DNA from: a virus
Taxonomy: Duplodnaviria > Heunggongvirae > Uroviricota > Caudoviricetes
DNA length: 26,870 nt
IMG/VR virus record: IMGVR_UViG_2869947659_000007
Coordinates: 1-26,870 of that record
Reading direction: 5' to 3' (one strand)
Position numbers: made by a program. Below, piece by piece: positions 17,901-20,900 of this stretch. Every line of letters begins with the position of its first letter. Within the stretch, counting starts at the first letter, position 1.

Positions 17901-20900
17901 CATAGTTAACCCATTAATCTGGTTGCCGGATGCTGGTGGATTTTCGCGTTTTAGTTGTTCATAAAAGTGCACAGCTTTAACCAGTTCTTCTGATGTAACC
18001 GGGACTGGTGGGGCAGTGAATAAGGCCTGAATTTCATAGTTCGGCCTGTCGTTACAATCCTCTTTTTTCGGTACATATTTCCAGTCACCAACCCACAACT
18101 CCCCCTGAGAGTCCATAACACCTTTTTTCACGTAGCGATATCGCCACGCTATCGGCTCTGCTTCCAGCGATGCCCGTGCAATTTTGAATAACTCGCCCTC
18201 TACTCGCGCCATCCCTGAATTGGGGTGGCATTTCGTAATCGCTATTTTTAATTTGGCTTCTTCGATTAATTGTTCTTTTGTTAATTCAGTCATTTTCATT
18301 ACCGCCCTTTCAGGCGGCCTCCTGATGTTCTGAGGGTGCAGAAATCCCTCCGGTTAAGGATTAAATTTTATTTGCTGTGCTAAATTTAATTATTCAGTTT
18401 TTATTCCTGCTCTCAAAACAGCCTCTGCCATTCTGATATCCGGATTTTCTGAAATCATCTTTTCCGGCGAGTCGCAATCACCACCACATTCAGTTATGCG
18501 TTCATGACCAAAACGAATTGTGGTTTTGTGCGCATTAATCATTTGTGTAAGCGCATCTGTCAATTCTGCAATGCGTTTGTCTTTAACTTCCAGCTCTTTC
18601 AGTAAAGCCAGTACGTCAGGAGCGCTAACATCAACGACGGTTACGCGCGATTTCAGGTAATGCTCATCCGCAAAAGTTCGACCAGTTTTAAAATATCCAT
18701 CATCCCCCTCACCTGTGCAGGCATACACAATATGCGTTCTGGAAAATATGCGCTGTATCGACATTTCATCGCCACAAACAGGACATTCCGGCACCTGAAT
18801 TGGTGAATAACGTTCACGTAATGCCTGGTAATTAGTCTTGCACACTGGCTGTCTCCTGAAAAATCACCGCATGCCCCAGTTTCTCCGCCAGCGCCAGTTC
18901 TGCCTTAGCGCCTGCTGACCGCTGCCAGCCTTTCAGCATGTAAATCGCATCCACACAACGAATCATCGCCATGCAGATATCCATGTACTGCGGCTGTGTC
19001 AGCCCGTCCGGAAGTACTGCCGGGTTTAAGACGGTATGCCCTTCCCGTTTCAGTTCCTCTTCCGCATTGTGAAACGCCTCACGGTTGAAATTTTTATACC
19101 CGGTCATTGGACCGGCGATATAGACTCTCACCCTCACGCCATCACCTCCTGAAAATTACCCTGATAAAACGACAATATGCGCTGCATAACTTCGCTCTTC
19201 CGGCACTCGCGACAGATTATGTTTAGGCGACTGTCGTAGCGACGTATTTGTCCGTCAGGTAATGACCAGATAAGGTCCGGATCAACCGCAGATGGTTTCT
19301 TCAGCTTTGCCCTTGAGAGCTTTTTACGGGCATTTTGCCAGTCCTTACGCGCCTGTTCAGACGGGAATAACCCGTAACCAGAGTTGTATACATCGCCACT
19401 GGCAACCAGCTCTCTGGCCAGAACGCTCATCAGATATCTTGTTGCCCCAGTTTTAGCTTCCAGTTGTCGTAACGTCTCGCGCCCACTCTGGCGTACGAGT
19501 TCAAGAACCTGCCCTTTAATTTTTTCCCGCTCTTCTTGTGTAAAAACTTTTGCCACAAGCCCTCCTGAAAATTACCTCATGACCAGAAATTAACACTTAC
19601 CCCCTGAAGCCCGGCGGAATTTCGTTATCCGGTTCAGAAATATGATTCACACAACGCTGGTTGTTCGTGCCGCTTACCGGGAGCAACCAGGGGTTCTCAA
19701 AATTCCGGTCCGGTCCAAAAAACGTCGTCGCTCGCTGAACAAATTCCGTTCCCGTTTTCCCGGTAGCCGCCAGGTATCTTGCGTAACGCCTCACGCCATC
19801 CAGCATGGCCTCTGGTGGCACCCCCTCGCGTAATCTGGCCTTCCAGGCACTGAAAGCGGATTTCTTCGGGTTTGCCCCGGCACGCAACGGGTACTCCCGC
19901 CAGACCTGTTCGAACACATCCGGATAATCCACTCGTCCCACAGACTGCCCGGTGTTTTCCGGGACTACCCGATCGGCTTCCCGCTGAATGGCGGAATCGG
20001 CTTCAGGCTGCTGCAGTTGGTGTGATTGCTCCGGACTTGCGGTCATCGCCTGCTGCACAGCGCCCGAATCGGCTTTCAGCGCATACGCTGAATCGGCTTC
20101 CGGTGTCGTGCCTGCTGGCTGACCAGGATTGACGGTCTGAACATCCCCTGCCTGGTTCGTGGCGTTTTTTACGCCATGGACCATAGTGTTTTGATCTTCT
20201 TGATCTGTATCTTTATCTGTATCTTTATCTGTCGTGACTCGTCGTGACATGTGCGTGACATATCGTGACGCGCCGTGACAATCGCCATTTTGTTCCCGCT
20301 TTCTTTCCCTCTCTCGCTGCGCCCTCTTGCGCTCTGCAGGAGATTTTGCGGTTTGCGAAATATTGCCGTTGTCCTCTTTCAGCACCTGGCGTTTTTCCCA
20401 TCCAGTGATTAAATCACCATCAAGTACCCGCCCCTGCATCGTCTGCAAAATTGAATCAATTACCTCTTCTGTCACGTCGAGCGCACTTGCCAAATCTTCT
20501 GTCGTGACATCAATGTGACCTCGCGTGACATTTCGTGACGCGCTCACCAGGAGGTGGATATACACTGCCATCACTGTTGCAATTGGCTGCCCTGACACCC
20601 TGGCAATTGTTCGCCACTTAGGGTCATTTGGCATGTCATGCCATAATCTGAGCCAGGCGTTAGCCATACTCACCTCTTTTGATACCGAATCTTTTTACTC
20701 ACAAATTGCCGGAAGTGATCCGGTATGAATATTGCGAGTCAATGCACAGCCACAATATTTCCTGCAGGGCCACCACGATTCATCTGGTTGAAACCAGCGA
20801 TCGCCACTGCGACAAAATCATCAGCGTCTCTCACCAGTCGTTCCCGCGTCTCCACTAGTTCCCGAAAATAGGCTGAGCTATGGCTGCGCATTCGGGCCAC

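What the first reader, a model, noticed from the sequence alone, without database searches (positions are those of the whole stretch)
20160..20545. Origin-like iteron arrays embedded in the replication initiator gene
Five cgtgac motifs at helical-turn spacing (20233-20279) next to an AT-rich tract and a small hairpin, plus a second cluster of four more (20503-20540) about 250 bp away, all inside the 358-aa O-like gene. This mirrors the ori-lambda-within-O arrangement and marks the likely prophage replication origin; the two-cluster layout is unusual.
Basis: partly seen in the sequence, partly recalled or inferred. Interest (0 to 1): 0.55.

Follow-up and report, generated by a model that had tools for sequence, protein, structure and literature searches.

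The report
Two-array replication origin inside prophage initiator gene
The repeats are real and almost certainly mark a prophage replication origin built into its own initiator gene, with an unusual second set of binding sites written into the part of the gene that encodes the DNA-binding domain; the design is a variant of a classic one, very common in E. coli, and apparently undescribed.

Summary
Window 20233-20279 holds five CGTGAC at spacings of 10, 11, 10 and 10 bp. Window 20503-20540 holds three exact copies plus one TGTGAC. An AT-rich tract (about 20185-20232) and a hairpin (20153-20183) lie next to the first array. All sit inside the minus-strand gene 19597-20673.

The repeats are DNA elements, not a by-product of protein repeats:
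- The hexamer falls in all three reading frames.
- Synonymous sites inside it are frozen across 22 homologues (0.15 against 1.63 bits, p=3e-5).
- Distant homologues carry a different hexamer (GTAACG or CGAACG), but both arrays of a given gene carry the same one.
- In 35 of 40 homologues the lowest-GC stretch of the gene abuts the downstream array.

The protein is not a lambda O homologue. It is a replisome-organizer-type initiator with a winged-helix N-terminal domain like that of DnaD and a C-terminal tail like that of DnaT.

Best reading: iterons plus an unwinding element form the core origin, and an auxiliary initiator-binding array lies about 260 bp upstream. The role of the auxiliary array is unresolved. 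No binding or replication has been shown. This is a new variant of a known kind, of moderate interest.

The parts
19597..20673 (-). Replication initiator gene (358 aa from GTG, 356 aa from ATG). It has a winged-helix N-terminal domain (aa ~1-95), a basic helix and low-complexity linker (aa ~96-200), and a C-terminal domain ending in a DnaT-like tail (aa 335-358).
20233..20279 (-). Array B: five direct GTCACG iterons (gene nt 395-441) at 10/11-bp spacing. These are the origin-proximal iterons. They encode linker residues 132-147.
   Evidence: The array is present at the same place in 40 homologues, with 3-6 copies and in shifting reading frames.
20185..20232 (-). AT-rich tract, the predicted DNA-unwinding element. 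It contains (GATAAAGATACA)x3 and encodes DKDT repeats.
   Evidence: GC is 0.25-0.37. In 35 of 40 homologues the lowest-GC 40-bp window of the gene starts within 21 nt of the end of array B, even in genes of 60-69% GC. Inside the tract GAT makes up 96% of Asp codons and AAA 80% of Lys codons, against 49% and 55% elsewhere in the same genes.
20153..20183 (.). Small inverted repeat (hairpin) just beyond the AT-rich tract.
   Evidence: 13-nt arms, 85% complementary, 5-nt loop. DNA fold -8.7 kcal/mol, z = -2.6. Conservation in distant homologues was not tested.
20503..20540 (-). Array A: four direct iterons (GTCACG x3 and GTCACA x1; gene nt 135-171) at 10/10/11-bp spacing. It lies inside the winged-helix coding region, where it encodes the end of helix H1 and the following loop (aa 45-57).
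   Evidence: Four-fold degenerate third positions inside the hexamers have entropy 0.15 bit against 1.63 bit outside, p=3e-5. The motif co-varies with array B. In the O157-type variant the array is expanded to six copies by a 7-aa insertion in the loop.
20471..20476 (+). Single inverted iteron copy, 27 bp downstream of array A in gene orientation. It encodes D-V-T at the start of the predicted recognition helix.
   Evidence: It is conserved at the same position in most GTCAC-class homologues. The Val third position is G in 19 of 19 sequences.

Best explanation
This is the replication origin of a lambdoid (Rac/Qin-like) prophage, embedded in the gene of its own initiator. The initiator is a replisome-organizer-type protein.

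Proposed mechanism:
- Its N-terminal winged-helix domain binds the GTCACG cores (inferred, not shown).
- The cores are spaced one per helical turn, so the protomers would line up on one face of the DNA (inferred).
- Array B (5 sites) directly abuts an AT-rich (GATAAA)n tract, which serves as the unwinding element. Array B plus this tract form the core origin in the interdomain-linker coding region, as in lambda O and SPP1 gene 38.
- Array A (4 direct sites plus 1 inverted site), about 260 bp upstream inside the DNA-binding-domain coding region, is a second, selectively maintained initiator-binding array. It most likely acts as an auxiliary site that raises the local initiator concentration or bridges to array B (inferred). 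It could additionally throttle transcription of the gene.
- The C-terminal domain, with its DnaT-like tail, then recruits the host helicase machinery (inferred). No P-like or DnaC-like loader gene follows the initiator gene in this prophage.

What is shown: the repeats are under DNA-level selection, they co-vary between the two arrays, and they are tied to an AT-rich tract. What is inferred: which protein binds them, that the tract melts, and how the helicase is recruited.
For: 1. The clustering is far beyond chance.
2. The motif is read in all three frames.
3. Synonymous sites inside the array A hexamers are nearly invariant across 22 homologues of roughly 65-98% amino-acid identity. Neighbouring four-fold sites are free, including the Arg codon immediately 3' of a hexamer.
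4. A hexamer found de novo as a phased array in zone B recurs in zone A, and almost nowhere else in the gene, in about 30 of 33 genes. Three related motif variants occur (GTCACG, GTAACG, CGAACG), and each gene uses the same variant in both arrays. This holds for the close pair L027/L028.
5. An AT-rich tract lies immediately after array B in 35 of 40 homologues, with an AT-biased synonymous codon choice.
6. Copy number varies from 3 to 6 per array through in-frame indels, as in lambdoid origins (PMC7466680).
7. The N-terminal domain is predicted to be a winged helix resembling the DnaD N-terminal domain. PHROG and RefSeq annotate the protein as a replication initiator or replisome organizer.
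8. There is precedent for an origin inside the initiator gene: lambda (PMC7466680) and SPP1 oriL in gene 38 (PMC6316719).
9. Isolated phages (Tritos, Evi, vB_EcoS-689R5) share the gene at 98-99% identity. In Tritos, the one checked, every iteron is identical.
10. The neighbouring genes and the C-terminal domain differ between the E. coli, O157-type, Pseudomonas and Aeromonas versions. The N-terminal domain is therefore the only constant partner of the arrays.
Against: - There is no experimental evidence of binding, unwinding or autonomous replication.
- The N-terminal domain reaches no curated family threshold. The Foldseek matches were not significant.
- Array A is missing in some homologues that keep array B and the AT-rich tract (L038; L029/L031/L042). 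It is therefore not essential to the design.
- The A-B distance ranges from 221 to 350 bp without a clear helical phase lock. This weakens a strict looping model.
- Because the arrays lie inside the gene, their covariation with the protein lineage cannot by itself prove that this protein is the binder.
- The hairpin is marginal (z = -2.6).
- No DnaA boxes lie nearby.
Confidence: 0.8

Rival explanations
1. Array B plus the AT-rich tract is the origin, but array A is a negative-control or autoregulatory element rather than part of the initiation complex. Initiator bound inside the 5' part of its own gene would block transcription, or would pair with array B or with a sister copy (handcuffing), as the P1 incA and incC iterons do around repA.
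For: Array A is separate from the unwinding element and dispensable in some lineages. Its copy number varies independently, 4 versus 6. It lies early in the transcript that must cross the origin. Separate iteron sets used for control are established in iteron plasmids (own knowledge; PMC5397158 on handcuffing).
Against: Nothing distinguishes this from an enhancer role. The phage lytic cycle needs burst replication rather than copy-number control. No promoter is involved.
Confidence: 0.25
2. The repeats are a passive consequence of protein sequence or codon usage and have no DNA-level function.
For: The array A peptide (SRNVTRGHxDVT) is conserved among close homologues. The AT-rich tract encodes an in-frame DKDT repeat.
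Against: The hexamer occupies three frames. Four-fold degenerate sites inside it are frozen while adjacent ones are free. The array B peptides differ between homologues while the DNA motif stays the same. Both arrays switch motif together. The Asp and Lys codon choice in the AT tract runs against the usage of the rest of the gene.
Confidence: 0.02
3. The arrays are binding sites for a different factor or process: a phage regulator, a host protein, a packaging or recombination site, or an RNA-level signal in the mRNA.
For: The covariation cannot formally identify the binder, because the sites lie inside the gene. Nearly all copies share one orientation, which an RNA signal would also show.
Against: Spacing of one per helical turn, a conserved inverted copy and an abutting AT-rich tract point to recognition of double-stranded DNA at an origin. 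The nearest other copies of the motif in the window are at 16242 and 23553, so none lies in the immunity or promoter region. No other neighbouring gene is conserved across the E. coli, Pseudomonas and Aeromonas versions. The gene lies in the early replication module, not the packaging module.
Confidence: 0.06

Closest known systems
ori-lambda within gene O of phage lambda and Stx phages (O-some origin)
   Same: The origin lies inside the initiator gene, in the region coding for the interdomain linker. It consists of direct repeats followed by an AT-rich tract and an inverted repeat. It sits in the pR-type early operon, so transcription crosses it. Iteron copy number varies between relatives, 4 versus 6 (PMC7466680). 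The O157-type variant is even followed by a lambda-P-like gene.
   Different: The protein is not homologous to lambda O (no Pfam hit). The iterons are 6-8 bp cores repeated every 10-11 bp rather than about 19-bp units. A second array lies inside the DNA-binding-domain coding region. No P gene follows in this window, and the C-terminus carries a DnaT-like tail.
SPP1 oriL in gene 38 (replisome organizer G38P)
   Same: The origin-binding replisome organizer binds direct repeats located inside its own gene, next to an AT-rich unwinding element (PMC6316719). RefSeq names the window protein 'phage replisome organizer'. The N-terminal domain is a predicted winged helix resembling the DnaD N-terminal domain.
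   Different: Sequence similarity is only marginal (TIGR01714 E=0.016). SPP1's second binding region, oriR, is about 13 kb away, not 260 bp upstream in the same gene. SPP1 brings its own loader and helicase (gp39, gp40).
Iteron plasmids with separate origin and control arrays (P1 incC/incA; F, RK2 handcuffing)
   Same: Two arrays of the same initiator-binding repeat are associated with the rep gene, and only one of them adjoins the unwinding element. It is plausible that the arrays pair through the initiator (own knowledge; PMC5397158).
   Different: Here both arrays are inside the coding sequence. The iterons are much shorter. The element is a lytic or temperate phage module, and no control function has been shown.
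SaPI/PICI origins (two sets of short iterons flanking an AT-rich region)
   Same: Short hexamer-scale iterons occur in two sets together with an AT-rich region (PMC6092414 mentions the layout).
   Different: In SaPIs the origin lies 3' of the rep gene and the two sets flank the AT-rich region. Here the sets are 260 bp apart inside the gene and only one abuts the AT-rich tract.

Membership tests
Lambda O / ori-lambda type origin | Initiator homologous to lambda O (Pfam Phage_rep_O N-terminal domain) | tested here: not met
   hmmscan against Pfam-A at E<=0.01 found no family. The best PHROG is phrog_3729.
Lambda O / ori-lambda type origin | Origin located inside the initiator gene, with iterons followed by an AT-rich tract | tested here: met
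   Array B at 20233-20279 is followed by the AT-rich tract at 20185-20232 inside the gene. This arrangement is conserved in 35 of 40 homologues.
Lambda O / ori-lambda type origin | About 19-bp iterons, each with internal symmetry, typically 4-6 copies | tested here: not met
   Only a 6-8 bp core is conserved ((A)T-GTCACG-(A/C)), repeated every 10-11 bp.
Lambda O / ori-lambda type origin | Partner P-type helicase loader gene immediately downstream | tested here: not met
   In the window the next gene is DUF977 / Ren-like. A 'replication protein P' gene does follow the O157-type variant, which has a different C-terminal domain.
Phage replisome organizer (SPP1 G38P type; TIGR01714 / Phage_rep_org_N) | N-terminal domain matches the family profile above its cut-off | tested here: not met
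   TIGR01714 scores 15.4 bits, E=0.016, against a cut-off of 49.8. There is no Pfam hit. The RefSeq name 'phage replisome organizer' is annotation only.
Phage replisome organizer (SPP1 G38P type; TIGR01714 / Phage_rep_org_N) | Winged-helix N-terminal fold of the DnaD-N-terminal-domain type | tested here: inconclusive
Phage replisome organizer (SPP1 G38P type; TIGR01714 / Phage_rep_org_N) | Binds direct repeats within its own gene next to an AT-rich unwinding element | not testable with these tools
   The sequence anatomy fits. Binding needs EMSA or footprinting.
Iteron-type replication origin (general) | Three or more direct repeats in helical phase, under selection as DNA | tested here: met
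Iteron-type replication origin (general) | Iteron sequence co-evolves with the cognate initiator lineage | tested here: met
   Three motif variants are distributed by protein lineage, and both arrays of a gene use the same variant. Caveat: the sites lie inside the gene, so linkage is automatic.
Iteron-type replication origin (general) | The fragment supports autonomous replication when the initiator is supplied | not testable with these tools
   Requires a plasmid replication assay.
DnaT (primosomal protein I) | Full-length match to the DnaT equivalog | tested here: not met
   NF002770 scores 19.2 bits against a cut-off of 201. Only residues 335-358 match the last 24 residues of DnaT (SEPDNxIPPGFRG).

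The most novel reading that the evidence does not exclude
Array A may be more than a spare set of sites. The initiator's binding motif is written into the codons of a surface loop (aa 45-57) and the first residues of the recognition helix (D-V-T) of the very domain that reads it. Under this reading, initiator specificity and target co-evolve as one physically inseparable unit. The residue after the invariant Arg-Gly tracks the motif: His with GTCAC, Arg with CGAACG, Asn or Glu with GTAAC. The A-B pair might also work as an intragenic loop or handcuff switch that couples initiator synthesis to origin firing. The evidence neither excludes nor supports a causal role for the encoded loop in specificity. 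The 7-aa iteron-driven insertion in the O157-type variant argues for a passive loop instead.
Probability: 0.15. Interest if true: 0.7.

Novelty: new variant of a known kind. Interest (0 to 1): 0.45.

Why it matters
This replication module is present in about 38% of complete E. coli genomes (2036 of 5426). It also occurs in prophages of Shigella, E. albertii, Serratia, Pseudomonas, Aeromonas, Bordetella and other Proteobacteria. Yet the gene is annotated as 'hypothetical' or 'replisome organizer', with no origin feature.

Three things follow from defining the origin:
- It gives a testable minimal replicon for a large, uncharacterised class of lambdoid prophages.
- It explains strong synonymous constraint inside a coding region.
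- It offers a natural series of iteron variants (GTCACG, GTAACG, CGAACG) for studying how initiator specificity drifts.

It also bears on recoding and annotation pipelines, which assume that synonymous sites are free.

Tried and rejected
- Pfam scan of the initiator: no family. NCBIfam gave only sub-threshold hits.
- PDB sequence search with a profile of the N-terminal domain: nothing relevant.
- First viral-contig scan: returned 80 loci, all about 99% identical to the window, so it was useless for comparative tests. The genome-contig scan gave the diverse set.
- Helical-phase test of the A-B distance: mean resultant 0.39-0.45, dependent on the assumed helical repeat, with non-independent sequences and distances of 221-350 bp. 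Inconclusive, so I claim no phase-locked looping.
- DnaA boxes: none within the gene, and the count in the window is below chance.
- Literature searches on iterons with replisome organizer, GTCACG with iteron, oriJ with Rac, DnaT-like phage, and two sets or clusters of iterons: no description of this origin. Older papers in subscription journals are not searchable here, so a prior description cannot be excluded.
- Amino-acid-repeat origin of the hexamer arrays: considered and rejected.
- Packaging-site reading: considered and set aside because of gene identity and position.
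Full report
**1. What is in the sequence**

The finding lies inside a minus-strand ORF, window 19597-20673. It is 358 aa from a GTG start; phage Tritos annotates the ATG two codons later.

On the + strand, CGTGAC occurs at 20233, 20243, 20254, 20264 and 20274, with spacings of 10, 11, 10 and 10 bp. It occurs again at 20503, 20524 and 20534, and a one-mismatch copy (TGTGAC, 20514-20519) fills the 21-bp gap. One inverted copy lies at 20471-20476.

The nearest other copies in the 26.9-kb window are at 16242 and 23553. Five copies in 50 bp compares with a maximum of 1-2 in 300 Markov simulations. CGTGAC is the strongest local hexamer cluster in the whole window.

In gene orientation I call the upstream array A (gene nt 135-171) and the downstream array B (gene nt 395-441). 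Array B is followed directly by an AT-rich tract with GC of 0.27-0.37. The tract contains (GATAAAGATACA)x3, at window 20198-20233. A small hairpin follows at 20153-20183, with a DNA fold of -8.7 kcal/mol and z = -2.6.

**2. The repeats are DNA elements, not protein repeats**

A 10/11-bp period rotates the reading frame. As a result GTCACG is translated as S-R, V-T and C-H or G-H in turn.

I fetched homologues of the N-terminal domain. Three came from phage records: Pseudomonas phage phita81A, Aeromonas phage pAEv1818 and Escherichia phage Tritos. Fifty-two came from bacterial genomes across Gamma- and Betaproteobacteria, at 47-98% amino-acid identity.

I analysed 22 distinct genes of the GTCAC class that align without indels.
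- Four-fold degenerate third positions inside the array A hexamers have a mean entropy of 0.15 bit (n=7).
- Comparable sites elsewhere in the domain have 1.63 bit (n=27). The Mann-Whitney p-value is 3e-5.
- The Arg codon immediately after a hexamer is free (1.72 bit).
- The Val codon in the inverted copy is GTG in 19 of 19 sequences.

In array B the encoded peptides differ between homologues, for example CHGASRYVTHMSRRVT against DDVTQCHAESRNVT, while the DNA motif is unchanged. Copy number there ranges from 3 to 6.

**3. Covariation between the two arrays**

For each gene I searched zone B de novo for a hexamer forming a phased array. I then asked where else in the gene that hexamer occurs.

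In about 30 of 33 genes it recurs in the 90-bp zone A and almost nowhere else.

Three related variants occur:
- GTCACG, in the window and most Enterobacteria, Pseudomonas, Aeromonas and Bordetella loci.
- GTAACG, in L023, L027, L034, L035 and L044.
- CGAACG, in eleven mostly betaproteobacterial loci.

Each gene uses the same variant in both arrays.

The close pair L028 (GTCAC) and L027 (GTAAC) is 95% identical over the first 37 residues. They have switched in both arrays, and L023 carries a mixture in both. This is the pattern expected if one protein reads both arrays and its specificity drifts.

One caveat applies. The sites lie inside the gene, so linkage to the protein lineage is automatic. 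Covariation therefore cannot by itself name the binder. However, the C-terminal domain and all neighbouring genes differ between the E. coli, O157-type, Pseudomonas and Aeromonas versions. That leaves the N-terminal domain as the only constant partner.

**4. The AT-rich tract is a conserved, selected feature**

In 35 of 40 homologues with at least three phased copies in array B, the lowest-GC 40-bp window of the whole gene starts within 21 nt of the end of array B. This includes genes with 60-69% GC overall. The tract nearly always reads (GATAAA)n or a close variant.

Inside the tract GAT makes up 96% of Asp codons and AAA 80% of Lys codons. In the rest of the same genes the figures are 49% and 55%. 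In the 18 high-GC genes the contrast is 94% against 39% and 68% against 35%.

The tract is therefore kept AT-rich at the DNA level, as expected of an unwinding element. No DnaA box lies nearby.

**5. The protein**

It has no Pfam family. It matches phrog_3729 'replication initiation protein' over its full length (E=2e-255). It also gives partial matches to PHROGs annotated as 'DnaD-like helicase loader' and 'replisome organizer'.

It has only a sub-threshold hit to TIGR01714 (phage replisome organizer N-terminal region, E=0.016). Its last 24 residues match the C-terminus of DnaT, SEPDNxIPPGFRG.

An AlphaFold2 model of residues 1-131, built with a 58-sequence alignment, has pLDDT 82. It shows three helices, a loop at 48-57, then helix-turn-helix and a wing.

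Foldseek hits were not significant.

Array A encodes the end of helix H1 and the loop at residues 45-57. The inverted copy encodes D-V-T at the start of the predicted recognition helix. Array B and the AT-rich tract encode a low-complexity linker that follows a basic helix.

RefSeq names the protein 'phage replisome organizer', 'DnaT-like ssDNA-binding domain-containing protein' or 'hypothetical protein'.

It is thus a functional analogue of lambda O, not a homologue.

**6. Context**

The gene sits in an early operon:
- RacR/cI-like repressor, 21495-21914 (+)
- Cro-like HTH protein, 21161-21487 (-)
- YdaT-like protein, 20739-21164 (-)
- the initiator
- DUF977 / Ren-like protein, 19134-19556 (-)

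Transcription from the early promoter therefore crosses the origin, as in lambda. No P-like or DnaC-like loader gene follows.

In an O157-type variant (L136) the same N-terminal domain and arrays are fused to a different C-terminal domain, and a 'replication protein P' gene follows. There array A has grown to six copies through a 7-aa insertion in the loop (TCHGVSL), made entirely of iteron-encoded residues. This shows array A evolving as a repeat array, with the protein loop accommodating it.

Isolated phages (Tritos, Evi, vB_EcoS-689R5) share the gene at 98-99% identity. In Tritos, the one I checked, every iteron is identical. The 411-bp origin fragment is found in 2036 of 5426 complete E. 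coli genomes.

**7. Most likely mechanism**

*Shown:*
- Two arrays of a short motif lie at one copy per helical turn.
- Both are under DNA-level selection.
- They co-vary.
- The downstream array abuts a selected AT-rich tract.

*Inferred:*
- The initiator's winged-helix domain binds the cores in a head-to-tail row on one face of the DNA.
- The complex on array B melts the AT-rich tract.
- The C-terminal domain, with its DnaT-like tail, recruits the host helicase machinery.
- Array A acts as an auxiliary binding array.

Whether array A enhances initiation (by local concentration or bridging) or restrains it (as a transcriptional roadblock or by handcuffing) cannot be decided here. Array A is absent in some homologues that keep array B and the AT tract: L038, and L029/L031/L042. 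The A-B distance varies from 221 to 350 bp without a convincing helical phase lock. Array A is therefore accessory rather than essential.

**8. Comparison with known systems**

The design of an origin inside the initiator gene, with iterons followed by an AT-rich tract, is classical. It is known for lambda and Stx phages (PMC7466680) and for SPP1 oriL in gene 38 (PMC6316719).

The differences are:
- The protein is not a lambda O homologue.
- The iterons are very short cores spaced at the helical repeat, not 19-bp units.
- A second array is embedded in the DNA-binding-domain coding sequence.
- The protein carries a DnaT-like tail, and there is no loader gene.

Two-array layouts exist in iteron plasmids (P1 incC/incA; own knowledge) and in SaPI/PICI origins (PMC6092414), but with different geometry.

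Literature searches found no description of this origin. Older subscription literature could not be searched.

**9. Verdict**

I rate it a new variant of a known kind.

It is of moderate interest for three reasons: it is very widespread, it is unannotated, and it gives a clean example of overlapping protein and DNA codes with co-varying iteron classes. The basic principle would not surprise a replication specialist.

My confidence that this is the prophage origin is about 0.8. Experimental confirmation is straightforward; see the next steps.

Noticed in passing
window 19597-19668 (aa 335-358 of the initiator): The last 24 residues (…NHISEPDNEIPPGFRG) match the extreme C-terminus of E. coli DnaT (primosomal protein I). 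No helicase-loader gene follows the initiator in this prophage. This suggests the phage copies a host replication-restart peptide to recruit host factors.
   Followed up: partly
L136 (E. coli RM6067W) 2353-3396; also L005 (E. albertii): An O157-type variant has the same N-terminal domain and arrays fused to a different C-terminal domain, followed by a lambda-P-like gene. Array A is expanded from 4 to 6 iterons by a 21-nt (7-aa, TCHGVSL) insertion in the protein loop.
   Followed up: partly
L045 and L053 (Serratia MAG, Pantoea), gene nt ~300-460 from the WLRLW anchor: Distant homologues have no array A. Their linker carries direct and inverted ACTACG/CGTAGT repeats, together with an inserted segment (…YVYFVV…GISSNPWAR…) that looks like an extra small domain. 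This is a different origin or insert architecture.
   Followed up: no
L023, L027, L028 arrays A and B: In this subfamily several sites are perfect palindromes (GTAACGTTAC, GTCACGTGAC) mixed with direct copies. L023 mixes GTAAC and GTCAC in both arrays. This suggests that position 3 of the core is tolerant, or that specificity is in transition.
   Followed up: partly
window ~22246-22972: An IS1 element (InsA/InsB ORFs at 22668-22943 and 22246-22749, minus strand) is inserted between the repressor gene and the RecE-like exonuclease VIII gene (ORF listed as 22824-25400, +). The exonuclease ORF's listed 5' end overlaps the IS, so its true start is probably downstream.
   Followed up: no
window 17220-17395 (-), 4113-4220 (+), 11183-11255 (-), 12247-12333 (+): Rfam gathering-score hits: sok antitoxin RNA (hok/sok type I toxin-antitoxin system, as next to hokD in related prophages), an ALIL pseudoknot (IS3-family frameshift element), and two tRNA genes.
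   Followed up: no
window 20739-21164 (-) and 19134-19556 (-): The origin gene is flanked by a YdaT-family protein (in the cII position) and a DUF977 / Ren-like protein. A nucleoside 2-deoxyribosyltransferase-like ORF follows at 18832-19137.
   Followed up: no
AT-rich tracts of homologues (e.g. L002, L007, L013, L022, L044): Many AT-rich tracts contain GATCTAAAA next to the (GATAAA)n repeats, that is, a Dam GATC site followed by an A-run. Whether this matters for origin regulation is unknown.
   Followed up: no
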